From an uncultured Candidatus Bathyarchaeia archaeon (lineage in GTDB: Archaea > Thermoproteota > Bathyarchaeia > Bathyarchaeales > DTEX01): a stretch of DNA of 64,000 nt. The stretch spans positions 2,282 to 66,281 of the forward strand of contig CAZELO010000012.1 in the NCBI GenBank assembly GCA_964513245.1, in the 5' to 3' direction. Every line of letters starts with the position of its first letter. The stretch's first letter is position 1. The position numbers and the translations under genes are program-made. The notes under the pieces were generated by a model. It did not search any database, was not told the origin of the DNA, and saw nothing but the letters and a program-made list of their open reading frames with translations. Below are positions 17,408 to 38,007 of this stretch, piece by piece.

Positions 17408-17515
17408 TGGTGCCGGGGGCGGGATTCGAGCCCGCGACTTCTGGACTTGGTGCGCTTGCCCTTTTGTTCTCCAGATTATGAGTCTGGCGCCCAAACCAGG
17501 CTAGGCTACCCCGGC
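17408..17515 (-). tRNA. tRNA with anticodon CAT (elongator Met or Ile2), CCA encoded, with a ~30 nt non-canonical intron in the variable region
   Basis: Hand-folded on the minus strand. Acceptor GCCGGGG/CCCCGGC. D arm GCCT-AGCCTGGTTT-GGGC. Anticodon arm CCAGA-CTCATAA-TCTGG. T arm GCGGG-CTCGAAT-CCCGC. Discriminator A plus CCA. There are 35 nt between the anticodon stem and the T stem where 5 are expected. Removing 17439-17468 leaves the canonical variable loop AGGTC. G1:C72 and no GGG/CCC in the anticodon stem argue against an initiator. Confidence 0.85.
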
Positions 17516-18247: not shown

Positions 18248-21200
18248 GTGAGCACAAGTATTATAAATAATCTCGGCACAACATTATTTTGTTGTAGGGG
18301 TTGCCGAAATTTGAATGGGAAATCAAGTATTATTCTGTTATTGGTCGTTTTGTTCTTGGGTTCTCTGTTTGTTGGGGGAGAAACTAACTTTGTTTCTGTA
18401 GCCAAAGGTGACGGGGACGTTTTTGATGTTTACTATTTCTATGGGCAGGAATGTCCTTCCTGTGTAAGAGTTGAGCCTTTTCTTGACGAGATTGAGCAGA
18501 AATATCCTTTGCAGATTCATAAGTTTGAAATTTTTAACAATGAAGAATATCTCTCGCTTTTCAATGACTACTGTACTAAGTACGGTGTCCCTTCGGAGAA
18601 TAGGGGAGTTCCTACAGTCTTTGTCTCCGATGCCTACTTTGTTGGTGCTCTTCAGATTTTTAGTGGCTTTGAAGAAGGCGTTAAGACGGCGTTGAAGGAG
18701 GATCCTAGATTTCTGAGTCAAGAAGAGGCACCTGCAGTCAGCAGCCCATCCACCTTCACTGTTATTGTCACCAGTTCAATTCAAATGTTCTTACGTAGTT
18801 TCCAAGCAGTCGGCCTACCGCTGTTGGCCATCGCGTTCTCATATCTTGCTCTTTCCTTTGTGAAGCGGAAGAATTTAGGGGGCAAGTTGACGGGCGTTTC
18901 TGGACGCGGGCTTCTGTTGATTTCTCTATCCCTTTCGACTGTATTCCTTGTTACTGTCACAGGTCTTTGGACTGGGCACGCTGGGATTGTTTCAGATGAG
19001 GTTTCTCCTGTAGCCGAGCAGCAAACAGATGTTAGTCCCGTTGATAGGTCGCCGAGCTTGGACATTTCAGCCTTGAATGCTGAGGCTGAACCAGACCGAA
19101 GATGTTCTAATTCTACCTGCACGACTTGTGGCGTTGATTCGGGGGGAGATGGTTCATCAAAGAACAGCGGCGTTACCTACGATTCTCAGGGCATAGTTAC
19201 TCTCGCTTCTCAATCTTCTAGTGTAGAAAGTTTCATAACAGATACGGGTCCAGAATTAGACTTCTATCAACCGTGCGATGGCGGAGATAATCTGATTGTA
19301 TTTTCCATAGAGATTTTTGATATAAATATTACTGAGATAAAATCAGCCACTCTCACTTTAAGAGTTTGGGATGTGGACATACCAGGCACATCCTCATGTG
19401 GACCTGAAATAGATAATGTTTTCTTCAATGGTGCCTATCTTGGGTACCTGACCGGGGCTAACGGCCAATGGAGTACATGCGCATTTGATGTTGATCCTTC
19501 ATTGGTCGTTGATGGGACCAATATAGTTCAGATTTTTATCGATACAACTGGCTCAGGATGCTGGTGTGTCGAGGTTGACTGGGGAGAATTGGCAGTTGAG
19601 ACAGGGATTGATCTGAAGATAGAATCAAAAGACATCTCTCTATCAACTCCTTCTAGAAGAGGAGAGGAGATTACAGTGACTGCAAAAGTACATAATGTAG
19701 GGGGAAAAGAAGCTAAAAATGTGAAGGTCAAGTTTACAGATACTTTCTTAGGTTCAAAGTTTGGCGAGGAAACTACAATCATACCTTCAATTCCAAGCGG
19801 TGGTGAAGCCGAAACTTCCATAAAGGTAATTGCATGGGACTTGGGCAAACACAAGTATACGGTCGTTGTTGATCCTGATGATGATATTGAGGAGACTGAT
19901 GAAGGAAATAATCGGGCCGAGACCCATACGATCAGTGGCACAATAAAAGAAGCTGTAAGCGGCACTGAACCTCTCAAACGCGTGAAAATAGTATATTCAG
20001 AAAAAGAGGGTGGCACTTGGCAAACTAAGTATACAGATTTCACAGATGATGAGGGAAGATACAACATAATTGTGAATCTGGATGCAATCACAGAAGGAAA
20101 GCCGGGTAGGGTAAATGCAACACTTGAATTTTCCCCTGATTACAAAACCACTAACACCAAAATCAGAGTTATTCATGATTCAGAATGGGGTGCTGCAAGT
20201 GCACCAGCAGCAGCCGCTAAACCATTAACTAAGAGCGTTGATGTTGCCGCTTCTGTAGAAAAAGATACTGACTATCCGAACAAAGACATATCATTCAATC
20301 CACAGGAGGGAGGAAGCACCTATCAAGCAGTTACAAATGCTTATATCTACTTCTCAGGTCGAACAGTTAATTTTGAGCCAGCTGGCAGGCTTGACGTGGA
20401 AGTTGCAGATAACGACTACCACACTTCTTACTATAGTCCCGGAACCAATACTTTGCATCTACATCACACCAGACTTGTTGCAGGTCAGGGATATGGAAAG
20501 CACTCTATTGCACATGAATATGCGCATAGAGTATCTAGTGGCTGGAATATGCCTTACGGGCCGGGCGGTCCTGGCGATGGAACAGGAGAAAACGGTTTAG
20601 ACGAGAATTGGGCTAATTTTGGTTCATGTTTGGCTCGAAATGATCCAGATCCACATGGTAGTGCGGGGTGGGTACTCAACCTCAACACCAACACTATTCT
20701 TGTAACAAATGATAATTACTGGGCTTGGTCGTTGGCTGATGTCTGGTGGGAGCTTGACAGCAGTGCTATAGATGCACCCAATAAAGTCGTTGGAACCTTA
20801 ATGAAATACCATCCCACAACAGTAGAGCAATTCTTTGTTAACTACACAAACGAGTACCCTACAACCAATGTTACTCTGGTGAAAAGGGTTTTTCGTCTTC
20901 ACGGATACAATGTGACCGGCTGGAAGGGTCGCGGAGGCGTTGATCCCTATGTATTCACAGGCGAATATAATGATTATAAAGTCGATGTTGATGGAGACGG
21001 TTTAGCAGATTACCTGAACATCAACGTAGGGGTAGACATCGCAACTGCAGGGAACTATTATGTATACGGATATTTAACGTCGGAAGGGGCAAGTGGTTAC
21101 TGTTTTGCCCTGAATTATTCTTATCTTGATCCAGGGATTCAGAATGTCACTCTTAGTTTTGATGGATTTTGCATTACTCAAAACAAGCTAAACGGTACAT

Positions 21201-24200: not shown

Positions 24201-25732
24201 CAAACTCATACGGAAGGTATTACATACTAGGTTTGAGCAATGGAACCTACAATGTAACAGCCCAGCCATATTACTACTGGAATCTGACGAGCATCTCAAC
24301 CCTAGAGAACATAACAGAAGGTCAGACAAAAACCATCAACTTTGAACTTGAAACAATCGGAGCAATGCTGACGGGTTTGGTAACCGATGTCAACGGCAAC
24401 CCAGTGGCCAATGCTTACGTTTCTGCAAGCGGTCCAAGCTATGGCTATGATCACACCGACATAAATGGAAGATATTTCATTTTCAATCTTGAAAATGGGA
24501 CGCACACCATTTCAGTTTCACCTTCCGATAATCTCTTGAGTAATTCAACAGATGTCAATACAACAACAGGGACAATAACTACTGCAAACATAATTCTGCC
24601 CACAGGAGGAACCATCACAGGAACCGTTACAGACAACTTGGGTTCACCAGTCAACAATGCCTACGTTTATGTCAGCGGTCCAAGCCAAGGCAATGACCAC
24701 ACAGATATAAATGGCCAATACGAAATCAAGAGGCTGCAGAACGGAACCTACACTGTGTATTTCTCTCCGCCCTCCGGTACAAATCTCTTGTCAAATTCTA
24801 CGGTCGCAAACGTATCTCTTGGAGAAGTCACAAGTGTTAACATGACTTTGCAACAGGGTGGAATCCTCACGGGAATCATAACCGCTGATGGCGCGCCAGT
24901 TGAAGATGCATATGTAACCTCGTCAGGACCGGTCTATAGTAATGACTATTCTAACTCTTCAGGCATGTACGAACTGATCAGATTAAAGACAGGAACCTAC
25001 ACTGTTAAAGTCTACTTACCCCCCAGTTATCTTCTAAACGCTTCGACAACCGTCAACGTCACTATTGGAGAGACAGTCACACTCAATTTCGTATTTCCAA
25101 TTATTGCTGCGGACACGACGAAACCTATAGCCAATGCAGGTGCCAACCAAACTGTTAACGAAGACACCATTGTAACATTCAATGCCTCAGCCTCCTATGA
25201 CGAGAATGACATAGCAAGTTACAATTGGACTTTTACGGATGCAGGCATATTGAAAACCCTAAGTGGCGTGAATCCCAATTACACCTTTCAGACACCAGGG
25301 GTATATACAGTTACTCTGAATATCACGGATCCCGCTGGAAACTGGGCAACAGCCATGGTTTTTGTGACAGTTTTAGACATTACAGAACCTGTGGCGCACG
25401 CGGGGCAAGATCGAACAGTAAACGTAGGCGAATCTGTAACCTTTGACGCAAGCGAATCCACAGACAATGTGGGCATAACCAGCTACGAATGGGACTTCGG
25501 GGACGGAGCCACTGGGGCAGGTATAACAACAACCCATAGTTACACGAACCAAGGGACTTATATAGTAAATCTTACAGTTGAAGACGCAGCAGGCAACACC
25601 GCTTCTCACTCGATAACCGTTACAGCAGTCACACCGACCTTCCCCGTATGGACCATGGGAGCAGCTGCCGCTGCTATTGCAGGAATACTTATCATTATGA
25701 TACTACTGTTGAAGAAAAGAAGCAAAGTATAA
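18248..25732 (+). CDS. giant (2494 aa) membrane-anchored multidomain surface protein: thioredoxin-fold, TM hairpin, CARDB, HExxH region, six ~120 aa DxDGDG modules, eight carboxypeptidase-regulatory-like domains, two PKD domains and a C-terminal TM anchor
   Basis: Uninterrupted 7.5 kb ORF. aa 23-43: hydrophobic signal/anchor (alternative TTG start at 18311 gives MNGKSSIILLLVVLFLGSLFVGG). aa ~55-150: YYFYGQECPSCVRVEPFLDEI...GVPTVFV (Trx fold, CPSC). aa ~188-241: two TM helices with a KRKNLGGK loop. aa ~452-556: CARDB (ITVTAKVHNVGGKEAKNV...VVVDPDDDIEETDEGNN). aa 754-760: IAHEYAH. aa 903-1623: six tandem modules. aa ~1625-2285: eight GxITGxVTDxxGxPVxNAYVxxSGP...TDxNGxYxIxxLxxGTYTV repeats. aa ~2290-2460: two PKD domains (YNWTFTD..., YEWDFGDG...). 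The C-terminus is AAAAAIAGILIIMILLLKKRSKV. Confidence 0.9.
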   Translation: MSTSIINNLGTTLFCCRGCRNLNGKSSIILLLVVLFLGSLFVGGETNFVSVAKGDGDVFDVYYFYGQECPSCVRVEPFLDEIEQKYPLQIHKFEIFNNEEYLSLFNDYCTKYGVPSENRGVPTVFVSDAYFVGALQIFSGFEEGVKTALKEDPRFLSQEEAPAVSSPSTFTVIVTSSIQMFLRSFQAVGLPLLAIAFSYLALSFVKRKNLGGKLTGVSGRGLLLISLSLSTVFLVTVTGLWTGHAGIVSDEVSPVAEQQTDVSPVDRSPSLDISALNAEAEPDRRCSNSTCTTCGVDSGGDGSSKNSGVTYDSQGIVTLASQSSSVESFITDTGPELDFYQPCDGGDNLIVFSIEIFDINITEIKSATLTLRVWDVDIPGTSSCGPEIDNVFFNGAYLGYLTGANGQWSTCAFDVDPSLVVDGTNIVQIFIDTTGSGCWCVEVDWGELAVETGIDLKIESKDISLSTPSRRGEEITVTAKVHNVGGKEAKNVKVKFTDTFLGSKFGEETTIIPSIPSGGEAETSIKVIAWDLGKHKYTVVVDPDDDIEETDEGNNRAETHTISGTIKEAVSGTEPLKRVKIVYSEKEGGTWQTKYTDFTDDEGRYNIIVNLDAITEGKPGRVNATLEFSPDYKTTNTKIRVIHDSEWGAASAPAAAAKPLTKSVDVAASVEKDTDYPNKDISFNPQEGGSTYQAVTNAYIYFSGRTVNFEPAGRLDVEVADNDYHTSYYSPGTNTLHLHHTRLVAGQGYGKHSIAHEYAHRVSSGWNMPYGPGGPGDGTGENGLDENWANFGSCLARNDPDPHGSAGWVLNLNTNTILVTNDNYWAWSLADVWWELDSSAIDAPNKVVGTLMKYHPTTVEQFFVNYTNEYPTTNVTLVKRVFRLHGYNVTGWKGRGGVDPYVFTGEYNDYKVDVDGDGLADYLNINVGVDIATAGNYYVYGYLTSEGASGYCFALNYSYLDPGIQNVTLSFDGFCITQNKLNGTYSLVDLYWENEDGSLADYRTSAYNTSTSYDYREFQMADVFPTGTYADFGRDTDGDGLYNYLTIEVELNATAEGEYLIYWSLHDSLGNPIADAENYAALSVGVQSVNLNFDGVSVYANGVDGPYILSGLVIFDSDYYPIYSDPTPFNTSMYSYTDFQKPNASFTTPITDYGADTDGDGLYDYLMVDVSVNVTSPGDYSLVGYLYDNTGYYITPANNYTILDAGVQIVELEFYGESIYRNRVNGPYNLTLELYDSAGALIGRMAYTSSSYNYAQFQMIQEDYFNITFADYGRDTNGDTLFDYLTIEMNMSAIESGIYHLNGYLYDINGSLVAFAGNSSYVNDQTTVQINFAGKDLWKTKFINGMYILTLEIYNETYTDRIELNNVYTTQAYNYTQFQPSTAYFTDVYSDHGTDTDGDGLLDYLTVEVGVNVTQSGDYTLSGYLYDAEDNYIAEAHNTTFLASGSSVTLYFDGVTIYAHQVDGPYNLKYVNLYGAHGTELDYRMDAHTTQAYEYTQFEKFPVILTGNYTDYGSDTDTDGLYNFLTITAEVIVQNSGTYAVNARLMDQFGNEIIWAANTSYLSADEPQFLDLNFDGKYIFGTLVAGPYYMKDIHVYNVNNPTQSVRVHDAYTTGFYNYTQFEQAGIVEGYITDVNGTGIANSIVSGGGDIDVTKPDGSYKLIIATAGNKEITATPPYGTNFVANSTWIQVTLGEVTIANITLPVEGIITGIVTDDALSPVENAVVYWSGPSSGSNNTDANGRYMIRGLLAGTYTITTTPPSGTNLLRNETTVNVSAGLTTYLNITLPIGGILTGFVTDINGTAVYNAYIHVSGPSYSSDYTDENGKYEITKLETGNYSIITDPPYDANLLQNSTYAYITAGETTVLNITLPRGGIITGFVFVDGIPLEGIYIRVSGPTYATKYTNIDGNYTFTRLPTGNYTVTANPYGSYGLTTNSTSAWIVAGGAYVINFTLSTLKGVITGVVTIGGMPLEGVTVNANYSSDNTNSYGRYYILGLSNGTYNVTAQPYYYWNLTSISTLENITEGQTKTINFELETIGAMLTGLVTDVNGNPVANAYVSASGPSYGYDHTDINGRYFIFNLENGTHTISVSPSDNLLSNSTDVNTTTGTITTANIILPTGGTITGTVTDNLGSPVNNAYVYVSGPSQGNDHTDINGQYEIKRLQNGTYTVYFSPPSGTNLLSNSTVANVSLGEVTSVNMTLQQGGILTGIITADGAPVEDAYVTSSGPVYSNDYSNSSGMYELIRLKTGTYTVKVYLPPSYLLNASTTVNVTIGETVTLNFVFPIIAADTTKPIANAGANQTVNEDTIVTFNASASYDENDIASYNWTFTDAGILKTLSGVNPNYTFQTPGVYTVTLNITDPAGNWATAMVFVTVLDITEPVAHAGQDRTVNVGESVTFDASESTDNVGITSYEWDFGDGATGAGITTTHSYTNQGTYIVNLTVEDAAGNTASHSITVTAVTPTFPVWTMGAAAAAIAGILIIMILLLKKRSKV

Positions 25733-26005
25733 ACGATGATCTTCTATACATTATAATGTATAGTCCCTCATTAACTTTCAAATGTTACCAAGAGCGTTAG
25801 CAACCGAATTGTCATCGAGAATCTAGGACACTAGCAACCGCTTTTAACAATCGTACTAAATAACCGCTATTGGCGTCGTGAATGTAAAAGCAGTATGTCT
25901 CTTCGTAGGATGGGAAAGGGATGACAATTCTATGGGGCGCGATGCAAGGCTTTCAAGTGTGTCATATTCCGATAATCACCATTTACCAGAACCTTGATAG
26001 TGCAG

Positions 26006-26013
26006 TTTTAAAT
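26006..26013 (+). promoter_or_regulatory. TATA-box-like element upstream of the second giant ORF
   Basis: TTTTAAAT ends 29 nt upstream of GTG 26043, compatible with a very short 5-prime UTR. Confidence 0.4.
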
Positions 26014-26042
26014 GCGTGTTGGAAATATGTAATTAGAGTTAA

Positions 26043-29000: not shown

Positions 29001-32000
29001 GAGGTGTGGATCTACGCCCCTTCCGTGGATTTAACTGTCAAAACGGACAAAGAAGAATACTTCAGTGGCGAAAACGTGACCATCACCCTAGATATAACGA
29101 ATAAGATGAGCTATAGCTTTGACCTCAGCGTATCGGTTGAGGTCTATGCTCCTGGCGGTGTTAAGATATTACAGACGATAGTCGGTGCACACTTGTTGAA
29201 TTTCTCCAGTGTTAGCAAGGTTGTGTATCTCCATTTGCCTGCACTGGCGAAGGATGGGGTATACGGTATCCGCGCTGAACAAATGGCGCGTATCGTAGAG
29301 CCAAGAGTGCAATTGGTATCCACGTCAAGCCGCTTTAGGGTTGCCCCTTATACCTTACAGGTAGTCTCTCGGTCGGCGCCGGACGTGTTCTACCCGCACA
29401 CCAACGTATCCATTGCACTGACGGTGAAGAACGTTGGAAAACAAGATGTGCCGAATGGCGTGGTTAACGTCACTTTTGCAAGCCCTGAAGGGTTGTTGTG
29501 GAAGCATGAACAGAGCTTCGGTCTGATGCGCGTCAACGACAGTCAGAACTTTACCTTCACGGTTCCAATAGGTGAATTAGATGCAGAAACCTACAGCATA
29601 GTCTATTGTATCCAATATGGCCCTGACAAAAGCAAGACGGGAAGCATTTACATCATTTCATCCCTCACGTCAAGGCTCAGTCTCAACCGCAGGTACTTCC
29701 AAGCTGGTGATGCTTTCAATCTTACACTTTGGATAACAAACGATGGGAATACCCGCCAGACCAAAACGGTCTTTCTAGAAGTGCCCGACCTCGCCTTCAA
29801 TGCTACTGGATATCTCGACCTACAGCCACTTGAAATATACACCTACATATCGCCAACCTTTCCTCTGCCGATGGATATCGATGCGGGTCAACATGAGATC
29901 CGCCTTTACCTCCTAGATGACGGGGACTCTCCAGCTTCTCCTACATCGCGATTCTACTTCACTGTCCCCGAACCCATAGTAACGATGGAGTTGAATTCGA
30001 CCAGCTACGTGGTTGGCGAGGCGGTTCACCTGCTGACGCGCAATACTGGAGGCATCAATGCCTCTCTCACAGGTCGAATGACCCTTATGCATAGGACAGG
30101 AAGAGTCATCGCCGAAGACTCTTATTCAGTGACGCTGGTTCCAGATGGCGCCACTGACTGGGCGTTGCCCATTCCGAATGATCTCCCGACAGGAATGTAC
30201 CTGTTTCAGGCTGAGGTGCTTGAGCTGACAACGAACGAGACCAAATCCTATACAATGACCTTGTGGATTGATGGACTAGACGTCGATTTGACGGTTGAGA
30301 CCGAACAGGACGTGTACAGCCGGGCAGAGTTGATCAGGATCTTATCGCAGATCAATAATTCACTGAGAAGTCTAGATAACGGGACGCTCCACCTGGAAGT
30401 CACGACTTTATCGACGAGAGACATTGAGGCAGCTTGGACTTACTATGACTATCCCCTTCCCTACTACGTCAACGCAATCGATTTCGACGATGTGGGCGCG
30501 ATGTGGCTGGGCACTCGGGATGGGGGCGTCATCCGAATGCAGGGAGACACGTGGACCCAGTATAGGGGTGAATATGGGTTGGTCTCGGGATCTATAGAGG
30601 TACTTGCCGTCGACACCGCGGGCAACGTGTGGGTCTCTAACCGCTTCGCTAATATATATTCGTCAAGAGGGGTCAGCGTATTCAACGGCACTGTATGGAC
30701 GCGGTACTCTGAATTTGATTCTGGTCTGGTGTCGGACTATGTCAGAGCGATTGCTGCAGACCCTGATGGTAGCGTCTGGTTTGGCACATATTATGGTGTT
30801 AGCCACTACGACGGTGTTGACTGGTTTACATACAACGAGTCGAACAGCGGACTACCTGACGACTACATTTACGATGTCGCAGTCGCTCCAAATGGTGATG
30901 TGTGGTTTGCAACTGGAAACGGCGCTGCATTGTTCAATGGCACCCACTGGACTGTCTACAACACGGCGAATAGCAGTTTTACAAGTAACTCTGTATACGC
31001 AATCGCTGTCAATGCTGATGGTAACGTATGGTTTGGCACATACAATACTGTCAGTGTGTTCAACGGGTCTGCTTGGAAGGCATACACTTCTTCTGACGGA
31101 CTGGCTTCGGGTACGATTCTGACGATTGAAATCGACGAGAGTGGCAAGGTCTGGGTTGGGACAACTGGCGGCATCAGCATGTTCGAAGGGTCCATTTGGA
31201 CAACCTACGATGAGGTGAATAGTGGATTGGCGGACAGTTACATCTATGCAATAGCCGTTGATCCCTCTGAGACGGCATGGGTCGGCTATTACGGTCATGA
31301 AATGGGGGTCGCCTTCTTTAATGGCAGCACGTGGAGAAAGTACATCCCCTCCATTATCAGCAACGACGTGGAAGGGTTTGCCTTAGACAAGGCGCAGAAC
31401 ATGTGGGTGGTGACTACTGAAGGCGTGAGTTGTTACGATGGCGACGATTGGGTTCACTTCACCACTGAGAACAGTGGCTTACTAAACAACGATGTTCGTT
31501 CAGTAGCCGTAGACAACGCCGGCGATGTATGGTTCGGTCACTACTGCGATTACTGGCCTGATTGTGGAATCAGCCGGTTCAACGGAACGGTTTGGACAAC
31601 TTATACCTATGCCAGCGAGGGGGTGCAGTTCGACCGCATCTATTCAATTGTGCCTGACAAGGATGGGAACATGTGGTTCGGCACAGAAAGTAGCGGCGTG
31701 TACAAGTATGATGGCGTCAACTGGACGGTATACAAGGTTTCAAACAGCGGTCTACCAACCGATTATGCTTCTTTGATCGCTTTAGACGGCGATGGGGTCC
31801 TCTGGGTAGGCACAACACAGGGGGTCAGCCGTTTCGACGGCACCTACTGGGTGACCTACAACACGTCCAACAGCGACCTGCCCTCCGACTATGTGACAGG
31901 CATTGCCGTGGATTCCACTGGCAGAGTCTGGGTTACCTCAAACAACTACCTGTATCCAGTAAGCTCCTTTGATGGAGCTGGTTGGACATCCTACTCTGGT

Positions 32001-35000
32001 CCCTCAATAGCCATCTTTGGATCTCTTGCGATCGATAACACCAACAACATCTGGTTTGGAACAGATGATGGTGCAGTCCGGTTTGACGGGGAAACTTGGA
32101 TAGTGTACAACACCACTAATAGCGGCATCATCGAAGATATAGTGTCTATCGGCTTCGCTGACGAAAGCGTTTGGTTCGCATCCACACAAGCACATCCGAG
32201 CGTGTGCGTGCTAACGCAAAACGTCACCGAGAGGCCCCCTCTCCTCTGGCAAGCCGATGTATCATTAAATATACCTGAAGGAGCTGCAAACACTACCTTC
32301 ATTGACGTAGGTAGTTTAGACGTCACCGGGAAACTCTTCCTCACAGGCGTCCTCCGCTCCGCTGACGGCCATGTTCTCGCTACAGATAGATATTCATTCT
32401 ACATTGTCGATGGCGACTTAACACTTACATTTGGCTTGGACAAGGATATCTACCTGCTCGATGAAGTGGTAACGGTAACCGGCACTGTGAGAAACACCGG
32501 TTCACAGCCTCGGACCGATCTCACCCTTGAGATACACGACGGGACGAGTCTGATCCATAGTGAAGATCTCAATGTAGACCCGGATGGTAGCTATAACTTC
32601 ACTGCAACATACACTGCGGAAACCCTTGGAACTCACATGCTAACGGTGGAACTCCTATCCGGCGGGGCGGCATTCATCGAAAATCTGGATAGTTTTGAGG
32701 TGGGACAGCCTGCACTCACTGTTGACGTTAGCGCGCCGAGCGTGGTCGGGTTAACACCTTTCATGATCGACGTACTGCTTAACAACACTGGAATTGTAGA
32801 TGCCACCGTCATTGTGAACTCTACAATCAGCGAAACAATATCTCCGGGTGAAGCCCGACTCATACAGTTCGCTCAACAGATCAACCAGACCAAGACATTC
32901 ACACTCCAATTCACTGGGGACTACGTTGAGACGAGTAATTTCACCGTCCTGTTCGGCGCTTCGGCTAATATATCATGTACGCCTCAAATGGTGTACCTTG
33001 AAGGATTGGTGAGTATACCATACCAAGTGATTAACACCGGCGTTTTCGATCTCGACTTCGATCTCGTTTTCTACCTCAATGAATCCGCAACCAGCATAGA
33101 AGAGTTGTACCTCCCAGCCGGCGCGAACATTACAGGGACGCTCTTGTATAATCTTACTGAGGGAACATACGAGATAAGCTGTTTCTCGTTGTTTGGCACC
33201 TGCAATGCGATCTTCGCGGTGGCGAAAGAAAACCAGCTCACGCTTACAGTGTCCGAGATTGAGAGCGTAAATGGAACTATCCAAGTCCAGATTGCAGTAG
33301 ACAATATCGGTGCCAACAGTTTCTATGGAACCTTGAGTTATGACACTGGGTTCGATGCCTACGAGATCCCGTTAACGCTTCCAGTCAGCGATACCTTTGC
33401 ACTGCAGTTGAACGTATCTACATTAGCCGCTCCAGCTGGAGAGTATAACCTTACCATCCAACTAAACACCGACAGCTCGGTCCTCTACAAGAAGATTCTC
33501 GCCTTTGAGATTACACGGGCTGACCTCAGGTTCACTTCTATCCCCGTTAACGCTTCTTTCCAAGCCGGACAGCTGGCCAACATGACTTTCAAAGTCGCGA
33601 ATGTTGGCGGTGAAGCGGGCGAAGCTTCTGTAGCGCTCACAATGCCCGGGATCTATAATGTGACCCAATTTGCTTGGGTGAGCCCCGGCGAGGAGGTAAC
33701 CTTCAACTTCACGATCCCGATTCCTGATGATTTACCGGAAGGAAGCTTCGATCTCTATTACGCGCTCAACGACGTGAGGAACAAGACGAAAATCTTCGTT
33801 TATGGGTCCAAGATCGCTGTTACGGCTGTCCTCGACAAAAGATTTTACAGCGAAGGCGAAAATGCAACGCTTGCCATAACCGTTGAGAACCTGCGTAACC
33901 AAAACTTAACTCTCTTCTCAACTGTCGGGTATGAGGTGTCACGAGAGACACAGTTCTTCAACCTAAGCAGCTTTGGAGCTGAATATCTCACGTTCGAAGT
34001 CCCAGTTCAGTTTCTCGACCAACCAAGTAGGAAAGTCCTGTACACCGTTTACACAGCCTCGGGCAGAGCGCTTTACATAAACTCTCTATATATCTATCCG
34101 CTTCCTCCATTCGCTAGTGGCATCACAGTTCACACCGACCGGTCGGTCTATGGTGTAGGGGAAACAGTTACCATCACGGTTAATGCGTCAAGAGATGGTC
34201 TTTTCGAAGCCTCAGCGCCCAACTTCCACGTTGAAGAGAACGTCACCGGAGTCGCTGTCTATACATTCACAGTGCCCGAGCTTCTCTCGGGTACATACTC
34301 CATTGACTACACGTTCGATGGTTATGCGCAATCGTATCCTTTTGATGTGGATGGCTATTCCGCAAGCATAACCGAAATCTCTCTTGACAAAGAACAATAT
34401 ACAACGGGAGAAGATGTACACATGAGATTAGTGGTCAATGCCAACCGAGACTTCGCAGCCCTCCTCAGAACAACGCTTTACGACCAATACTTCGCGCCGA
34501 TCGACAGGTTCAGTTTAAACGTAAGCCTAGTCCGAGGCGAAAACCTTGTTGAGATCACACGAACCATTGTGTTAGGCGGGATAGGCATATACGCCATAAA
34601 CCCAAGAATCTACGTTGACCTACCAGCGCATTCTTTCGTTTTGGTTGCTGCAGGATCACGTTTCTTTGATGTGACAAGCGACATAATTTCGCCGGCAATC
34701 ATAATTACTTCGCCCCAGAACATAACCTACGCTGCTGACGCCATAAACCTAAACTACACTGTGAATGAACCTACCTTGTGGGAAGGCTACAGCCTCGACG
34801 GAAATGCCAATGTAACGTTAACGGGAAACAAGTTGTTAACAGAACTCACACAAGGCCCACACTGGCTAACAGTTTATGCGAACGACACAAGCGGGAACAT
34901 GGGTTCAAGTACAGTCTGGTTCACTGTGAACCTTCACCCGGTTGCTGTTGTGCTTAGTGATCCGTCTGATATAACGGATAACTCGATGAAGCTGACTTGG

Positions 35001-35342
35001 ACGGAAAACGCTGACGCCGACTTCGAAAACTACACGATATACATGTCGACTGCTGAGGGAACCATTGGAACTCTAATCCACACAGTGACGGAAAAGACAA
35101 CGACATCCTACGTTGTGACAGGGCTGTCGCCAGAAACCACCTATTACTTCACAATACGAGTCTACGACACCGGCGGACTGTACGCAGACTCAAACCAAGC
35201 CAGCGGAAAAACCAAAGCAACACCATTTCCCTGGGCAACAATCATAGCAGTGGCAGCTCTGATTGGTATAACAGCTATTGCAGTGGTTGTTCTAATGAAA
35301 AGACGCAAAAATCCAAATGAATATTCTCTTTCTAGCGATTGA
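26043..35342 (+). CDS. giant (3099 aa) membrane-anchored multidomain surface protein: thioredoxin-fold, Cys-rich hydrophobic region, D/G tract, alpha/beta domain, many Ig/CARDB-like domains, ~14 Reg_prop beta-propeller repeats, FN3 and a C-terminal TM anchor
   Basis: Uninterrupted 9.3 kb ORF. Signal-like SSFLILLILTSFILA. aa ~60-175: FFYADWCHFCNLEKPIVDEL...VDGYPTMFLIYG (Trx fold, CHFC). aa ~199-386: ~24 Cys. aa 387-430: D/G tract. aa ~455-660: VAILERGYY...YPVLLIPSGGL...YVAQGGTLITF (GATase1/ThuA-like alpha/beta fold, tentative). aa ~1465-2050: repeats of the type NVWFGTxxGVSxFDGxxWTxYxxxNSGLxSxxVxxIAxDxxG (two-component-regulator-propeller type). aa ~2965-3057: FN3 (MKLTWTENADADFENYTIYMS...TTYYFTIRVYD). 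The C-terminus is IIAVAALIGITAIAVVVLMKRRKN. Confidence 0.9.
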   Translation: MRTYALKKHFASSFLILLILTSFILADYGLSSPFLKETDTQLESSGDFLGFSDAYIRELEENGFGGSLDSIIDAALSSGRLIFLFFYADWCHFCNLEKPIVDELGMEFSERILFIRLNEKLNQEAMQEFMVDGYPTMFLIYGEDSEGYKYVEFRGYKEKTQLKNDLEYVLVNLRPPPTSEGDLLAELELIANEGSLHHTCDIDACLGDCRIEAGFWEEDVMRVLYEMARFTGECSLCVGAVTSCVGLCSAALTACAGTLGAACLPSLGLCAGCWALFTVEELSPGPGCGGCIEDFSQLQEAAREMRETLESCSACCEDPMSCEYGAQECKDPDITGLPDAQRCVDNNMVTMTCEECDWVQSPGTSISSCPQGTHCVETSTTMAECREDDDDDGGGGGDDDDDDDCSGLSCDGGGGGGGGGGSGPSPGPGNDHPDDTYDVSTVSSSLVSPSLEQVVERPKVAILERGYYLSLMDLMSGLSEHVSIVDLSFTQEMVNDYPVLLIPSGGLFGLGSSNLSRSKLEEYVAQGGTLITFSQQHGYDYNVLPGGLVDGFGWIEDQSCQYGSTGISTYRPFLSGILERFTLQTGMISLEVDGYFTRWPQDASVILTRVKNGLPVMLEYQYGKGTVIASTLFSDFSHLFQWGHTMDDTILIRDLINWAKNPDVLPDYLPGTEVTIPINVTNHVLYSPSYPQFDLGSNVTLSVNITNSGEDPSTLISFLLVDPYYNLHSVNVSETVLPDETKTLNVTFETTGESLEGVWYILYKLYAGDVGIWSGYAGAFTLGANIVDVSTYTVGFTLLDPDGQVVETRTIPYYVRPSETVAVNFTYTPTKSGIWSLDYVVRDYRDVIIDFGISNFAVSRFQESPNGWVYQGAEIGFTITSDSDIYSLGTKANVTFHVWNRGDENVTTFIFWEFERRGLEEMKLVNVPGFGEAKVYRLNETLLVPANSYANLTYTLDPELNDPSGRTSMEIYAQFFAGSYCGYMKREVWIYAPSVDLTVKTDKEEYFSGENVTITLDITNKMSYSFDLSVSVEVYAPGGVKILQTIVGAHLLNFSSVSKVVYLHLPALAKDGVYGIRAEQMARIVEPRVQLVSTSSRFRVAPYTLQVVSRSAPDVFYPHTNVSIALTVKNVGKQDVPNGVVNVTFASPEGLLWKHEQSFGLMRVNDSQNFTFTVPIGELDAETYSIVYCIQYGPDKSKTGSIYIISSLTSRLSLNRRYFQAGDAFNLTLWITNDGNTRQTKTVFLEVPDLAFNATGYLDLQPLEIYTYISPTFPLPMDIDAGQHEIRLYLLDDGDSPASPTSRFYFTVPEPIVTMELNSTSYVVGEAVHLLTRNTGGINASLTGRMTLMHRTGRVIAEDSYSVTLVPDGATDWALPIPNDLPTGMYLFQAEVLELTTNETKSYTMTLWIDGLDVDLTVETEQDVYSRAELIRILSQINNSLRSLDNGTLHLEVTTLSTRDIEAAWTYYDYPLPYYVNAIDFDDVGAMWLGTRDGGVIRMQGDTWTQYRGEYGLVSGSIEVLAVDTAGNVWVSNRFANIYSSRGVSVFNGTVWTRYSEFDSGLVSDYVRAIAADPDGSVWFGTYYGVSHYDGVDWFTYNESNSGLPDDYIYDVAVAPNGDVWFATGNGAALFNGTHWTVYNTANSSFTSNSVYAIAVNADGNVWFGTYNTVSVFNGSAWKAYTSSDGLASGTILTIEIDESGKVWVGTTGGISMFEGSIWTTYDEVNSGLADSYIYAIAVDPSETAWVGYYGHEMGVAFFNGSTWRKYIPSIISNDVEGFALDKAQNMWVVTTEGVSCYDGDDWVHFTTENSGLLNNDVRSVAVDNAGDVWFGHYCDYWPDCGISRFNGTVWTTYTYASEGVQFDRIYSIVPDKDGNMWFGTESSGVYKYDGVNWTVYKVSNSGLPTDYASLIALDGDGVLWVGTTQGVSRFDGTYWVTYNTSNSDLPSDYVTGIAVDSTGRVWVTSNNYLYPVSSFDGAGWTSYSGPSIAIFGSLAIDNTNNIWFGTDDGAVRFDGETWIVYNTTNSGIIEDIVSIGFADESVWFASTQAHPSVCVLTQNVTERPPLLWQADVSLNIPEGAANTTFIDVGSLDVTGKLFLTGVLRSADGHVLATDRYSFYIVDGDLTLTFGLDKDIYLLDEVVTVTGTVRNTGSQPRTDLTLEIHDGTSLIHSEDLNVDPDGSYNFTATYTAETLGTHMLTVELLSGGAAFIENLDSFEVGQPALTVDVSAPSVVGLTPFMIDVLLNNTGIVDATVIVNSTISETISPGEARLIQFAQQINQTKTFTLQFTGDYVETSNFTVLFGASANISCTPQMVYLEGLVSIPYQVINTGVFDLDFDLVFYLNESATSIEELYLPAGANITGTLLYNLTEGTYEISCFSLFGTCNAIFAVAKENQLTLTVSEIESVNGTIQVQIAVDNIGANSFYGTLSYDTGFDAYEIPLTLPVSDTFALQLNVSTLAAPAGEYNLTIQLNTDSSVLYKKILAFEITRADLRFTSIPVNASFQAGQLANMTFKVANVGGEAGEASVALTMPGIYNVTQFAWVSPGEEVTFNFTIPIPDDLPEGSFDLYYALNDVRNKTKIFVYGSKIAVTAVLDKRFYSEGENATLAITVENLRNQNLTLFSTVGYEVSRETQFFNLSSFGAEYLTFEVPVQFLDQPSRKVLYTVYTASGRALYINSLYIYPLPPFASGITVHTDRSVYGVGETVTITVNASRDGLFEASAPNFHVEENVTGVAVYTFTVPELLSGTYSIDYTFDGYAQSYPFDVDGYSASITEISLDKEQYTTGEDVHMRLVVNANRDFAALLRTTLYDQYFAPIDRFSLNVSLVRGENLVEITRTIVLGGIGIYAINPRIYVDLPAHSFVLVAAGSRFFDVTSDIISPAIIITSPQNITYAADAINLNYTVNEPTLWEGYSLDGNANVTLTGNKLLTELTQGPHWLTVYANDTSGNMGSSTVWFTVNLHPVAVVLSDPSDITDNSMKLTWTENADADFENYTIYMSTAEGTIGTLIHTVTEKTTTSYVVTGLSPETTYYFTIRVYDTGGLYADSNQASGKTKATPFPWATIIAVAALIGITAIAVVVLMKRRKNPNEYSLSSD

Positions 35343-37995: not shown

Positions 37996-38007
37996 CACAA
38001 GGATTGA

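What the first reader, a model, noticed from the sequence alone, without database searches (positions are those of the whole stretch)
18248..35342. Tandem pair of giant surface proteins that both begin with a thioredoxin-fold CxxC domain plus a membrane hairpin
Two consecutive same-strand ORFs (2494 and 3099 aa) fill about a quarter of the window. Their ectodomains differ, but both share the same unusual frame. Each has (i) an N-terminal hydrophobic signal/anchor. Each has (ii) a thioredoxin-fold domain with an intact CxxC (CPSC in YYFYGQECPSCVRVEPFLDEI; CHFC in FFYADWCHFCNLEKPIVDEL...GYPTMFLI). Each has (iii) a hydrophobic stretch long enough to cross the membrane twice (P1 aa ~188-241 with a KRKNLGGK loop; P2 aa ~232-277, Cys/Ala/Gly-rich). 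Each has (iv) thousands of residues of beta-rich repeat domains packed with N-x-S/T sequons. Each has (v) a C-terminal TM helix with a basic tail (LLLKKRSKV; LMKRRKN). A redox-active Trx module hard-wired to the N-terminus of multi-thousand-residue adhesin or S-layer-like proteins is not an architecture I recognise. It could be a built-in oxidative-folding or isomerase module for a Cys-containing ectodomain. Together with the hairpin it could also act as a minimal DsbD/CcdA-like electron conduit.
Basis: partly seen in the sequence, partly recalled or inferred. Interest (0 to 1): 0.8.

Follow-up and report, generated by a model that had tools for sequence, protein, structure and literature searches.

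The report
Giant surface proteins, relic thioredoxin leaders
Two neighbouring giant cell-surface genes of a probable Bathyarchaeia archaeon each begin with a thioredoxin domain, and each domain is a different leftover piece of a larger DsbD/CcdA-like "electron-export" cassette that related archaea fuse to the front of many different secreted proteins; I found no description of this cassette in the literature I could search.

Summary
Both ORFs are real and uninterrupted. Each has an N-terminal signal sequence, an intact CxxC thioredoxin fold, about twice the expected number of N-x-S/T sequons, and a C-terminal TM helix with a basic tail. The "shared frame" is only partly true.

- **P1** carries a small glutaredoxin-like domain (Trx1, CPSC) followed by a genuine two-helix hairpin that contains no cysteine.
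- **P2** carries a different, classical PDI-like thioredoxin (Trx2, CHFC). Its "hairpin" is a Cys/Ala/Gly-rich stretch that is hydrophilic in its homologues, so it is probably not in the membrane.

Exhaustive HMMER found hundreds of relatives. All ten strong matches in species genomes are Bathyarchaeia MAGs. Their N-terminus reads signal peptide, Trx1 (CPHC), six-TM CcdA/DsbD-like core with two conserved PC cysteines, two-TM hairpin, sometimes Trx2, then highly varied cargo of up to about 3000 aa (beta-helix proteins, subtilases, CARDB, dockerin).

P1 has lost about 240 residues, the whole CcdA core. P2 keeps only a signal peptide where the last TM sits, plus Trx2. The DsbD/CcdA guess is therefore right about ancestry and wrong about present function. 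Neither protein can conduct electrons itself. The domains most likely act as extracytoplasmic thiol-disulfide exchangers recharged in trans. I rate this a new variant of a known kind.

The parts
18311..25732 (+). P1 gene. The longest ORF starts at GTG 18248. The likely start is TTG 18311, which gives 2473 aa.
   Evidence: The public gene call P0002 begins MNGKSS.
18311..18394 (+). P1 signal peptide (aa 22-49). It resembles the consensus of the relatives, LFV.SLFVGGET.
18410..18703 (+). P1 Trx1, a glutaredoxin-like minimal thioredoxin fold (aa 55-152). CPSC lies at 18452-18463 and the cis-Pro motif RGVPTVF at 18602.
   Evidence: HMM of the relatives gives 168 bits. AlphaFold2 pLDDT is above 95. 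Foldseek matches thioredoxins and glutaredoxins. Pfam is sub-threshold.
18731..18772 (+). Deletion junction (aa 162-175). These 14 residues stand where relatives have about 240 residues, namely a linker plus the six-TM CcdA-like core with its two PC cysteines.
   Evidence: Profile positions 147-389 are unmatched. Searches agree.
18779..18976 (+). P1 two-TM hairpin (aa 178-243) with a cytoplasmic KRKNLGGK...GRG loop and no cysteine. It is homologous to TM7-TM8 of the relatives' cassette. The second helix resembles an internal signal peptide.
   Evidence: BLAST gives 48% identity to P0004 aa 384-441. The HMM hit has E 4e-13. Searches support the hydrophobicity and the signal-peptide resemblance.
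19085..19582 (+). P1 membrane-proximal Cys-containing region (8 Cys, aa 286-440).
19610..25627 (+). P1 ectodomain. It contains CARDB (19610-19918), an HEYAH motif (20513-20527), five to six repeats of about 120 aa resembling DUF4785_3rd with DxDxDG motifs (about 20900-23107), seven to eight CarboxypepD_reg domains (about 23108-25123) and two PKD domains (25124-25627).
   Evidence: It is 35% identical to the cargo of P0007, which has a full cassette.
25637..25729 (+). P1 C-terminal TFPVW motif, TM helix and KKRSKV tail.
26058..35342 (+). P2 gene. The longest ORF starts at GTG 26043. The likely start is TTG 26058.
26058..26141 (+). P2 signal peptide or signal anchor (aa 6-33). It sits where the last TM (TM8) of the relatives' cassette sits.
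   Evidence: A BLAST alignment of P2 aa 1-169 to P0003 aa 407-572 runs through it. One search shows the alignment. Sequence similarity in the TM itself is weak.
26220..26552 (+). P2 Trx2, a classical PDI-like or cDsbD-like thioredoxin domain (aa 60-170). CHFC lies at 26313-26324 and the cis-Pro motif GYPTMFL at 26439.
   Evidence: Pfam PF00085 gives 45 bits. It is 47% identical to the second Trx of P0003. AlphaFold2 pLDDT is above 90. The best PDB sequence matches are PDI-family a domains. NCBIfam gives a weak match to the DsbD C-terminus.
26625..27332 (+). P2 Cys-rich region (26 Cys, aa 196-415), which includes the supposed hairpin (26742-26879), then an acidic and poly-Gly linker. It is probably an extracytoplasmic soluble domain.
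   Evidence: Homologous regions in P0001, P0051 and P0005 are hydrophilic. AlphaFold2 confidence is low.
27333..35204 (+). P2 ectodomain. It contains a conserved domain of about 270 aa starting HPDDTYDVS, Ig-like arrays of MG2/CARDB/A2M_BRD type, Reg_prop beta-propellers (about 30429-32220), further Ig-like arrays and an fn3 domain (34965-35204). There is no thioester motif.
   Evidence: It is 37% identical over 858 aa to the cargo of P0005, which has a full cassette.
35217..35339 (+). P2 C-terminal PFPW motif, TM helix and MKRRKN tail.
   Evidence: NCBIfam gives GG_III-CTERM at exactly its cut-off and weak Loki-CTERM and PEF-CTERM matches.

Best explanation
P1 and P2 are two paralogous, differently truncated members of a family of archaeal exoproteins found mainly in Bathyarchaeia.

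**The ancestral N-terminal cassette**
- In order it reads: signal peptide; Trx1, a small glutaredoxin-like domain that is usually CPHC; a six-TM CcdA/DsbD-type core with one cysteine in TM1 (SPCS) and one in TM4 (LPCTGGPY); a further two-TM hairpin; and in some members Trx2, a classical thioredoxin with CGWC or CGYC.
- Very diverse cargo follows the cassette.
- By analogy with DsbD and with CcdA-ResA or CcdA-Etrx systems, intact members would pass electrons from cytoplasmic thioredoxin through the two membrane cysteines to the outward-facing Trx domain(s). These domains would reduce or shuffle disulfides in the Cys-rich, membrane-proximal part of the cargo, or in other envelope proteins.

**What the window's genes retain**
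- P1 has lost the whole core through an in-frame deletion of about 240 residues. It keeps Trx1 (CPSC) and the hairpin.
- P2 keeps only a signal peptide at the position of the last TM, followed by Trx2 (CHFC) and a Cys-rich domain.
- Both Trx domains keep their CxxC motif and cis-Pro loop, and both are predicted to lie outside the cell.

**Inferred function**
- I infer that they still work as surface thiol-disulfide exchangers. They must be recharged in trans, by an intact paralogue or a stand-alone Grx-CcdA protein elsewhere in the genome, or else act only once during folding.
- The last TM resembles an internal Sec signal peptide, so the cargo may be cut free from the redox module after export.

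**Shown versus inferred**
- Shown: the anatomy, the homology, the deletion and the predicted topology.
- Inferred: catalytic activity, the direction of electron flow, recharging in trans, and cleavage.
For: **Family and cassette**
- Exhaustive HMMER with P1 aa 22-260 found 1646 proteins at E<=1e-3 and 257 at E<=1e-10. Many are 1000-2987 aa long.
- Their N-termini show Trx1, SPCS, PCTGG and the hairpin.
- 24 of the 25 representatives of at least 1000 aa have both PC motifs. The exception is P1.

**CcdA/DsbD identity of the core**
- Stand-alone homologues of about 370 aa match the cassette profile at E<=1e-118. They carry Pfam DsbD or DsbD_2 and are named "cytochrome c biogenesis protein CcdA/glutaredoxin".
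- The P0004 cassette aligns in the same order with NCBIfam DsbD over the TM region plus Trx2, at E 5e-6.

**Deletion in P1**
- An HMM built without P1 hits profile positions 3-146 and 390-450 only.
- The hairpin is 48% identical to P0004 aa 384-441.

**P2**
- P2's thioredoxin domain corresponds to Trx2 of P0003, P0004, P0010 and P0051, at 39-47% identity.
- Its cargo is 37% identical to that of P0005 and 39% to that of P0051, both of which have a full cassette.
- The P2-type N-terminus (signal peptide, Trx2, Cys-rich region) is conserved in P0001 at 35% identity. This argues for retained function.

**Folds and catalytic residues**
- All 16 Trx1 columns that are invariant across the ten sequences of A1 (P1 included), among them both active-site Cys and the cis-Pro, are by definition shared by P1.

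**Cysteine distribution and topology**
- Cysteines cluster next to the Trx domains.
- The topology obeys the positive-inside rule, as read from the sequences.

**Internal signal peptide**
- One search shows the signal-peptide-like last TM across the relatives. Several cargos end in dockerin.

**Taxonomy**
- The ten strong genome matches are all Bathyarchaeia MAGs, with uninterrupted ORFs.
Against: - No CcdA, thioredoxin reductase or other redox partner lies in the 64-kb window. Recharging in trans is therefore an assumption.
- P1 has no close orthologue anywhere I could search. Conservation of its deleted state, and thus selection for it, cannot be shown.
- P1's active-site neighbourhood differs from the family consensus, with GQECPSC in place of GxGCPHC.
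- The long relatives' TM core reaches Pfam DsbD_2 only below threshold. It does not hit solved CcdA structures by sequence.
- CPHC is the motif of the oxidase DsbA (my own knowledge), so the direction of the chemistry is open.
- There are no expression, proteomic or biochemical data.
Confidence: 0.6

Rival explanations
1. The Trx parts are evolutionary relics with no redox role. Once the CcdA core was lost, the N-terminal remnants serve only as export signal and membrane anchor for the giant ectodomains.
For: - Both window proteins lack the conduit, whereas 24 of 25 long relatives have it.
- P1 is a singleton with an altered active-site context, CPSC preceded by Glu.
- One Trx2 copy in P0051 has already lost its second Cys and reads CGYS, which shows that decay does occur in the family.
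Against: - The CxxC motif, the cis-Pro loop and all 16 invariant Trx1 columns of A1 are intact in P1.
- The Trx2 and Cys-rich arrangement is conserved between P2 and P0001 at only 35% overall identity. A neutral relic would not be expected to survive that much divergence.
- Both folds are predicted with pLDDT above 90.
Confidence: 0.2
2. The Trx domains are autonomous oxidants or foldases, working like DsbA or PDI. They introduce or shuffle disulfides in the adjacent Cys-rich stalk during export and never needed the reductant conduit, so losing it costs nothing.
For: - The Trx1 family motif is CPHC. Its best PDB sequence matches are DsbA, at E 0.001, and ScsC-like proteins.
- Trx2 matches PDI a-domains best.
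- Cysteines are concentrated immediately downstream of the Trx domains.
Against: - In almost all relatives Trx1 is physically fused to a CcdA-type reductant exporter. This is the arrangement of a reductive or isomerase pathway.
- No DsbB-like or VKOR-like re-oxidiser was seen in the window.
- Trx1 lacks the helical insert of DsbA.
- Bathyarchaeia are anaerobes according to the abstract of PMC10477458, which leaves no obvious terminal oxidant.
Confidence: 0.13
3. The thioredoxin domain plus the adjacent hairpin together form a minimal DsbD/CcdA-like electron conduit.
For: The hairpin is derived from a DsbD/CcdA-like membrane domain. P2's stretch is very Cys-rich.
Against: - P1's hairpin contains no cysteine, and it corresponds to TM7-8, outside the catalytic core.
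- Both conserved PC cysteines are absent from P1 and P2.
- P2's stretch is not conserved as hydrophobic in its homologues.
Confidence: 0.03
4. The finding is an artefact. Either the P1 deletion or the fusion of Trx to the ectodomain comes from mis-assembly or a wrong gene model, or translation really starts downstream of the Trx domain.
For: - The sequence is probably a metagenome-assembled contig; that is my inference from its relatives, and only the NCBI source and the 69,211-bp length are recorded.
- Both genes need non-ATG starts.
- The P2 homologue in L001 carries a 1-nt frameshift.
Against: - The reading frames are continuous.
- A signal peptide precedes each Trx domain, and each later start would remove it.
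- Dozens of independent contigs encode the same fusion in one ORF.
- The deletion is in frame and preserves the membrane topology.
Confidence: 0.04

Closest known systems
DsbD (E. coli-type thiol:disulfide reductant exporter, made of nDsbD, tmDsbD and cDsbD)
   Same: - Intact relatives have an outward-facing redox domain, then a multi-TM domain with two essential-looking cysteines, then an outward-facing thioredoxin domain.
- They are weakly collinear with the NCBIfam DsbD model over the TM region plus Trx2.
- The abstract of PMC2631958 describes this arrangement of a TM domain flanked by two globular domains, each with a Cys pair.
- P2's Trx2 weakly matches the DsbD C-terminal domain.
   Different: - The N-terminal domain is a glutaredoxin-like thioredoxin fold, not the Ig-like nDsbD (the nDsbD fold is from my own knowledge).
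- Thousands of residues of cargo are fused behind the cassette.
- All matches are below the curated cut-offs.
- P1 and P2 themselves lack the membrane core and both of its cysteines.
CcdA with extracytoplasmic thioredoxin-like partners (ResA, CcmG or CCS5; Etrx1/2 of Streptococcus pneumoniae)
   Same: - A six-TM CcdA-type core hands electrons to a surface-exposed thioredoxin-fold protein.
- The abstract of 10.1101/2022.10.14.512171 states that CCS5 receives electrons from CCDA. PMC3914529 describes the surface thioredoxin lipoproteins Etrx1 and Etrx2.
   Different: - In these archaeal proteins the partner is fused in cis, and the whole unit is fused to cargo.
- The cargo I inspected has no cytochrome c context, with no CxxCH motif in P1 or P2.
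- The window's two proteins have the partner domain without CcdA.
Stand-alone archaeal "CcdA/glutaredoxin" fusion proteins (about 370 aa; Woese-, Pace-, Aenigm- and Micrarchaeota, among others)
   Same: They are direct homologues of the cassette, at E<=1e-118 to the cassette profile. They have the same Trx1 (CPHC) plus CcdA core, with Pfam DsbD/DsbD_2/SfLAP hits.
   Different: - They have no extra hairpin, no Trx2 and no cargo.
- They carry only automatic annotation, and I found no functional study of them.
Membrane-tethered PDI-like proteins (for example the human TMX family)
   Same: A thioredoxin domain with CxxC is tethered to a membrane on the non-cytoplasmic side. P2's Trx2 matches PDI-family a-domains best.
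   Different: They are eukaryotic ER proteins with no giant cargo. The similarity is limited to the thioredoxin domain, and this is an analogy only.
Giant archaeal and bacterial adhesin-like surface proteins (CARDB, PKD, CarboxypepD_reg and alpha-2-macroglobulin-like MG domains)
   Same: The ectodomains are arrays of these beta-rich domains, with enriched N-glycosylation sequons and a C-terminal TM anchor.
   Different: - P2 has MG2 and A2M_BRD hits but no thioester CxEQ motif.
- No S-layer family domain was detected.
- An N-terminal redox cassette is not a feature I know from such proteins, and it was absent from the literature I searched.

Membership tests
Thioredoxin-fold superfamily (P1 Trx1) | A b-a-b-a-b-b-a core with CxxC at the N-terminus of helix 1 | tested here: met
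   The AlphaFold2 model has pLDDT 96-98 over residues 38-130, with CPSC at the start of helix H49-64. Foldseek matches thioredoxins and glutaredoxins with probability 1.0.
Thioredoxin-fold superfamily (P1 Trx1) | A conserved cis-Pro loop before strand b3 | tested here: met
   RGVPTVF is present, and its Pro is invariant in alignments A1 and A2. That this Pro is in the cis conformation is inferred by analogy with RGIPT of E. coli thioredoxin (my own knowledge).
Pfam Thioredoxin / Glutaredoxin (P1 Trx1) | A score above the curated gathering threshold | tested here: not met
   PF00085 gives 15.2 bits against 23.5, and PF00462 gives 14.6 against 22.9. Relatives with repeated Trx1 domains do pass: P0013 hits Glutaredoxin at 9.5e-15.
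Pfam Thioredoxin PF00085 (P2 Trx2) | A score above the gathering threshold, an intact CxxC and a cis-Pro | tested here: met
   The score is 45 bits against 23.5. CHFC and GYPTMFL are present. AlphaFold2 pLDDT is above 90.
DsbD/CcdA family (P1 and P2 themselves) | A membrane core of at least six TM helices | tested here: not met
   P1 has only two internal TM helices, which correspond to profile positions 390-450. The core positions 147-389 are absent. P2 has only its N-terminal signal and no conserved TM helix after it.
DsbD/CcdA family (P1 and P2 themselves) | Two conserved redox cysteines in TM1 and TM4 (PC motifs) | tested here: not met
   P1 has no Cys between aa 110 and 285. Neither the SPCS-type nor the PCTGG-type motif occurs in P1; P2 was not put through that motif scan, and its lack of the core rests.
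DsbD/CcdA family (the intact relatives) | A TM core with two PC cysteines and homology to annotated CcdA/DsbD | tested here: met
   - The cysteines are nearly invariant.
- Homologues of about 370 aa carry PF02683 or PF13386.
- The direct Pfam hit of the long forms is sub-threshold.
- There is no sequence hit to solved CcdA structures.
DsbD proper | An N-terminal Ig-like alpha domain carrying a Cys pair | tested here: not met
   The N-terminal domain is a thioredoxin/glutaredoxin fold. The fold of nDsbD is from my own knowledge.
Archaeosortase-type C-terminal sorting signals (PGF-, PEF-, Loki-, GG_III-CTERM) | A signature motif, a TM helix and a basic cluster, scoring above the model cut-off | tested here: inconclusive
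   - P2's C-terminus scores 22.0 bits on GG_III-CTERM, exactly at the cut-off of 22.
- Loki-CTERM gives 15.8 bits against 19.9, and PEF-CTERM gives 13.9 against 23.
- P1 gives only Loki-CTERM at 11.4 bits.
- Relatives show VPEFP before the TM helix.
Alpha-2-macroglobulin family (P2 ectodomain) | MG domains together with a thioester CxEQ motif | tested here: not met
   MG2 and A2M_BRD are hit, but no CxEQ motif is present.
S-layer proteins | A recognised S-layer domain, or demonstrated lattice formation | tested here: not met
   No S-layer family appears among the Pfam hits. Lattice formation cannot be tested with these tools.

The most novel reading that the evidence does not exclude
In this reading, Bathyarchaeia encode a previously undescribed class of "self-servicing" exoproteins.
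- Each large secreted enzyme or adhesin is translated as a polyprotein behind its own DsbD-like reductant exporter (Trx1, an eight-TM CcdA-type domain and sometimes Trx2).
- The last TM helix acts as an internal signal peptide and is cut by signal peptidase. The redox module then stays in the membrane at the export site while the cargo is released or anchored by its C-terminus.
- P1 and P2 would be natural dissection products of this system. They would show that Trx1 and Trx2 can each work without a conduit in cis, drawing on paralogues in trans.
Probability: 0.3. Interest if true: 0.75.

Novelty: new variant of a known kind. Interest (0 to 1): 0.6.

Why it matters
- Extracytoplasmic thiol-redox control in archaea is, to my knowledge, little studied, and Bathyarchaeia are among the most abundant sediment microbes (abstract of PMC10477458).
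- A DsbD/CcdA-type electron exporter fused to the front of many different secreted proteases, beta-helix proteins and adhesin-like giants would be a new way of coupling export to redox maintenance.
- It would also give CcdA a role in the proteins examined here, which show no cytochrome c heme-binding motif (no CxxCH in P1 or P2).
- The two genes in this window are useful as natural deletion variants. They separate Trx1 plus hairpin from Trx2 plus the Cys-rich stalk.
- For annotation, the family is currently labelled "hypothetical", "CcdA" or by a cargo domain only. These labels hide the architecture.

Tried and rejected
**Searches that found little**
- The word-index homology search with P1's N-terminus found nothing. 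With P2's N-terminus it found a single protein. Only the exhaustive HMMER scan revealed the family.
- An exact look-up of P0002's contig failed.
- The metagenome scan for close P1 orthologues found only distant Trx1 hits and two fragments of the Cys region. Conservation of the deletion could not be tested.
- A tblastn search of the CcdA core against the window found only P1's hairpin. Pfam scans of about 30 neighbouring ORFs found no redox partner.
- Sequence searches of the PDB with the cassette profiles did not reach the solved CcdA structures.
- Four literature searches gave nothing on this architecture.

**Analyses that misled or were uninformative**
- MAFFT aligned P1's hairpin to TM1-2 of the core. 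I rejected this in favour of TM7-8 after BLAST and HMM analysis.
- The AlphaFold2 model of P2's Cys-rich region was too uncertain to settle whether it lies in the membrane or is soluble.

**Readings considered and dropped**
- Alpha-2-macroglobulin for P2, because there is no thioester motif.
- Multihaem cytochrome, because there is no CxxCH motif.
- S-layer protein, because no such domain was found.
- A single ancestral gene split into P1 and P2. Both keep a version of the last TM helix, and their cargos have different full-cassette relatives (P0007 for P1; P0005 and P0051 for P2).

**Unresolved**
- The direction of evolution for P2 is open. It could be a truncated fusion or a form that was never fused.

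Full report

The region holds two uninterrupted same-strand ORFs, 18248..25732 (2494 aa, P1) and 26043..35342 (3099 aa, P2), separated by 310 bp.

Neither has an in-frame ATG upstream of its thioredoxin part. In both, a TTG lies directly before a typical signal sequence.
- For P1 the public gene call (P0002, 2473 aa) starts at TTG 18311, reading MNGKSSIILLLVVLFLGSLFVGG.
- For P2 I infer TTG 26058, reading KKHFASSFLILLILTSFILA.
- A start downstream of either thioredoxin domain would remove the signal peptide.

Hydropathy confirms the N-terminal signals and the C-terminal TM helices with their basic tails.

N-x-S/T sequons are enriched about twofold over shuffled sequence. P1 has 63 against 31 +/- 4.9 (z 6.6). 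P2 has 64 against 26 +/- 4.4 (z 8.6). Five other proteins encoded in the window (four presumably cytoplasmic enzymes or sensors and one ABC-2 membrane permease) show no such excess.

The surrounding genes are archaeal housekeeping genes. They include a split transketolase, aIF-1A, an intron-containing tRNA, and the UbiD/AcnX/GHMP-kinase set of the archaeal mevalonate pathway.

**2. The two thioredoxin domains are real but are not the same domain.**

P2 aa 79-166 passes Pfam Thioredoxin at 45 bits against a cut-off of 23.5.
- It is modelled with pLDDT above 90.
- By sequence it is closest to PDI-family a-domains and to thioredoxins.

P1's domain is below Pfam thresholds (E 0.02-0.06 for Thioredoxin, Glutaredoxin and Glrx-like).
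- AlphaFold2 with 47 homologues gives pLDDT 96-98 for a minimal b-a-b-a-b-b-a fold, with CPSC at the N-terminus of helix 1.
- Foldseek returns thioredoxins and glutaredoxins with probability 1.0.
- It keeps the RGVPTVF loop, which resembles the cis-Pro loop RGIPT of E. coli thioredoxin (my own knowledge).

**3. What the N-termini really are.**

A word-index search with P1's N-terminus found nothing. An exhaustive HMMER scan of 1.84 billion representative proteins found 1646 relatives at E<=1e-3 and 257 at E<=1e-10. Of the best 150, 44 are at least 600 aa, 25 at least 1000 aa and 8 at least 2000 aa.

Reading their N-termini shows a constant cassette, in this order:
- a signal peptide;
- Trx1, with consensus DVYFFYGxGCPHCAxVEPFL...RGVPTVFVSDTYFVGD;
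- a linker;
- a six-helix membrane core with a nearly invariant SPCS in its first helix and ELPCTGGPY in its fourth;
- two further TM helices joined by a very basic loop, SFAKRKNLGxRLxRIPGRG;
- the cargo.

The charge distribution fits a topology with Trx1 outside, eight TM helices and the cargo outside. All four basic loops then face the cytoplasm (read from the sequences).

The core belongs to the CcdA/DsbD family.
- Homologues of about 370 aa that consist of Trx1 plus the core match the cassette profile at E<=1e-118.
- These homologues carry Pfam DsbD (PF02683), DsbD_2 (PF13386) and SfLAP, and their sources name them "cytochrome c biogenesis protein CcdA/glutaredoxin". They come largely from DPANN archaea.
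- The long forms hit DsbD_2 only below threshold.
- One of them, P0004, aligns collinearly with NCBIfam's DsbD model from the first TM helix to the end of a second thioredoxin domain, at E 5e-6.

That second domain, Trx2, is a Pfam Thioredoxin with CGWC or CGYC. It is present in 4 of 27 long relatives.

Cargo is extremely varied. Among those 27 relatives it includes NosD/beta-helix (10), MopE-type Cys motifs (6), subtilases (5), CARDB, dockerin, cohesin, papain-like and M64 peptidases, and propellers.

The ten strong matches in the species-representative genome collection are all Bathyarchaeia MAGs. An eleventh, weak match is an Iainarchaeum MAG. One of the MAGs holds two loci. The ORFs are uninterrupted. 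The window's AcnX protein clusters with a protein from "Candidatus Bathyarchaeota archaeon". The window is therefore probably from Bathyarchaeia.

**4. Where P1 and P2 fit.**

An HMM of the cassette built without P1 matches P1 in two pieces.
- Profile positions 3-146 match aa 24-161, at 168 bits.
- Profile positions 390-450 match aa 176-236, at E 4e-13.
- The roughly 240 positions between them, the linker plus the entire six-TM core with both cysteines, are replaced by 14 residues.

BLAST agrees, with P1 aa 178-235 being 48% identical to P0004 aa 384-441. P1's hairpin is therefore TM7-8 of the cassette, and it contains no cysteine. P1 is the only one of the 25 relatives of at least 1000 aa that lacks both PC motifs. 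Its cargo is 35% identical over 789 aa to that of P0007, which has a full cassette.

P2's thioredoxin domain corresponds to Trx2.
- It is 47% identical to P0003 aa 459-575, and it also matches P0004, P0010 and both tandem copies in P0051.
- The alignment of P2 aa 1-169 to P0003 aa 407-572 puts P2's signal sequence where the last cassette TM helix sits. The similarity within the TM helix itself is weak.
- Its cargo is 37% identical over 858 aa to P0005 and 39% over 425 aa to P0051. Both of these have a full cassette.

P2's closest relative is P0001 on L001, at 35% identity over about 650 aa.
- It has the same short form: its own signal peptide directly after a stop codon, then Trx2 (CYFC) and the Cys-rich region.
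- Its ORF continues into at least 1588 further residues across a single-base frameshift.

The P2-type architecture is thus conserved across considerable divergence. No CcdA-like sequence lies upstream of P2 or anywhere else in the window.

**5. P2's "hairpin".**

The aa 232-277 stretch is rich in Cys, Ala and Gly.
- It passes a Kyte-Doolittle threshold (1.6-1.9) because that scale rates Cys and Ala as hydrophobic.
- On the Wimley-White octanol scale it scores +0.2 and -4.2, against -8 to -10 for P1's helices.

The whole region between Trx2 and the conserved PGxDxPDDNYDVS landmark is homologous in P2, P0001, P0051 and, in part, P0005. Shared landmarks are HTCDxxxCxxxC, CxxCxW and an acidic run. 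In those homologues the equivalent segment is charged, with a maximum KD19 of 0.5-1.5.

AlphaFold2 is uninformative for this region, with pLDDT 30-50. I conclude that it is most likely an extracytoplasmic Cys-rich domain held together by disulfides or metal ions. The membrane-hairpin reading is not confirmed.

**6. How it most likely works.**

The anatomy, the homology and the deletion are shown. The following is inferred.

In intact members the cassette is built like a DsbD or a CcdA-plus-partner system.
- In DsbD a TM domain with a Cys pair is flanked by two external redox domains (abstract of PMC2631958).
- CcdA passes electrons to an external thioredoxin-like protein (abstracts of 10.1101/2022.10.14.512171 and PMC3914529).
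- The cassette would thus export reducing equivalents to Trx1 and Trx2. These would keep cysteines reduced, or shuffle disulfides, in the Cys-rich cargo segment that follows, or in other envelope proteins.

Cysteines are concentrated exactly there. P1 has 3.9% Cys in aa 243-445 against 0.15% beyond. P2 has 11.8% in aa 195-415 against 0.38% beyond.

P1 and P2 cannot do this themselves. Their external CxxC domains are intact and well conserved, so the most economical reading is that they still exchange disulfides and are recharged in trans by an intact paralogue or a stand-alone Grx-CcdA protein. At least one MAG has two loci. I give the whole statement 0.6. The structural and evolutionary part deserves about 0.85 and the functional part about 0.45.

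**7. An extra lead.**

In nearly all long relatives, and in P1, the last cassette TM helix has the n-h-c layout of a Sec signal peptide.
- It has a basic n-region and a hydrophobic stretch of 15-20 residues.
- Small residues then follow, for example VNA|QS, ARA|S, AHA|S and AIA|D. In P1 the sequence is GHA|G.

Several cargos end in dockerin modules, which are normally found on proteins that dock to a cohesin partner. The proteins may therefore be polyproteins that signal peptidase cuts into a membrane redox module and a released or C-terminally anchored cargo.
- If so, the thioredoxin module is "hard-wired" only at the gene level.
- This is untested here, because no SignalP or DeepTMHMM was available.

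**8. Comparison with what is known, and novelty.**

Functionally, the nearest systems are DsbD and the CcdA-ResA, CcdA-CcmG and CcdA-Etrx pathways. By sequence, the nearest are the archaeal CcdA/glutaredoxin fusions of about 370 aa, which I found only as automatic annotations.

P1 and P2 fail the defining tests for DsbD/CcdA membership, because they have neither the core nor its cysteines. They should not be annotated as CcdA. They are thioredoxin-fold-bearing surface proteins derived from that family.

Four full-text searches found no description of a Trx-CcdA cassette fused to large exoproteins, in Bathyarchaeia or elsewhere. That library is incomplete, so the absence is not proof.

I class the finding as a new variant of a known kind. 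Interest is 0.6. The window's own genes are degenerate members, but they led to a widespread architecture that looks undescribed, and they provide natural deletion variants of it.

Noticed in passing
window 17411-17515 (-): Rfam finds a 105-nt tRNA here (56.6 bits, full model length), but ARAGORN misses it. It is probably an intron-containing archaeal tRNA, and it lies about 800 bp upstream of P1.
   Followed up: no
window 20513-20527 (P1 aa 756-760): An HEYAH (HExxH) motif sits in a stretch of about 250 aa (aa 640-890) with no Pfam match. It may be an unrecognised zinc-metalloprotease-like domain inside the P1 ectodomain.
   Followed up: no
window about 20984-22810 (P1 aa 913-1520): Five DxDxDG motifs (DTDGDGLYNYLT and similar) recur once per repeat of about 120 aa in the DUF4785_3rd-like repeats. 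This looks like a calcium-binding signature.
   Followed up: partly
window 25637-25660 and 35223-35234; relatives P0008, P0012, P0040, P0009: A shared motif sits just before the C-terminal TM helix: TFPVW in P1, PFPW in P2, and VPEFP[LIV] in the relatives. This resembles PEF-CTERM or Loki-CTERM sorting signals of the archaeosortase type. NCBIfam scores are at or below their cut-offs.
   Followed up: partly
L001 about 5950-5960: The P2 homologue on ENA contig k141_554174 is split by a single-base frameshift into a 655-aa gene and a gene of at least 1588 aa (DIM* followed by NVSNPTNHTAS). The frameshift could be an assembly error or a pseudogene. It shows that gene callers can separate the thioredoxin part from the cargo artificially.
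   Followed up: partly
window 36685-40529 (+): A UbiD-family decarboxylase, the large and small subunits of AcnX, and a GHMP kinase lie in a row. This is the gene set of the archaeal modified mevalonate pathway. In the 90%-identity protein collection, the cluster of the window's AcnX oddly mixes proteins named UbiD with proteins named aconitase.
   Followed up: no
P0013, P0019, P0020, P0109, P0119, P0144 (relatives): Some bacterial-looking or archaeal relatives carry two or three tandem Trx1-type domains in front of a membrane domain. The family's N-terminal redox domain is itself modular and can be duplicated.
   Followed up: no
P0063, P0090 and about 30 other relatives of about 370 aa: One subset has Trx1 plus about eight TM helices but no PC cysteine motifs and no Pfam hit. 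It may be a cysteine-less sister family of the CcdA-type core.
   Followed up: no
P0051 aa about 655-800: The second of its two tandem Trx2 copies reads CGYS instead of CxxC. It is a natural monothiol variant within the family.
   Followed up: no
window 27198-27332 (P2 aa 386-430): An extreme low-complexity linker, DDDDDGGGGGDDDDDDD...GGGGGGGGGGSGPSPGPG, separates the Cys-rich region from the conserved HPDDTYDVS domain. Acidic runs occupy the same position in P0001 and P0051.
   Followed up: partly
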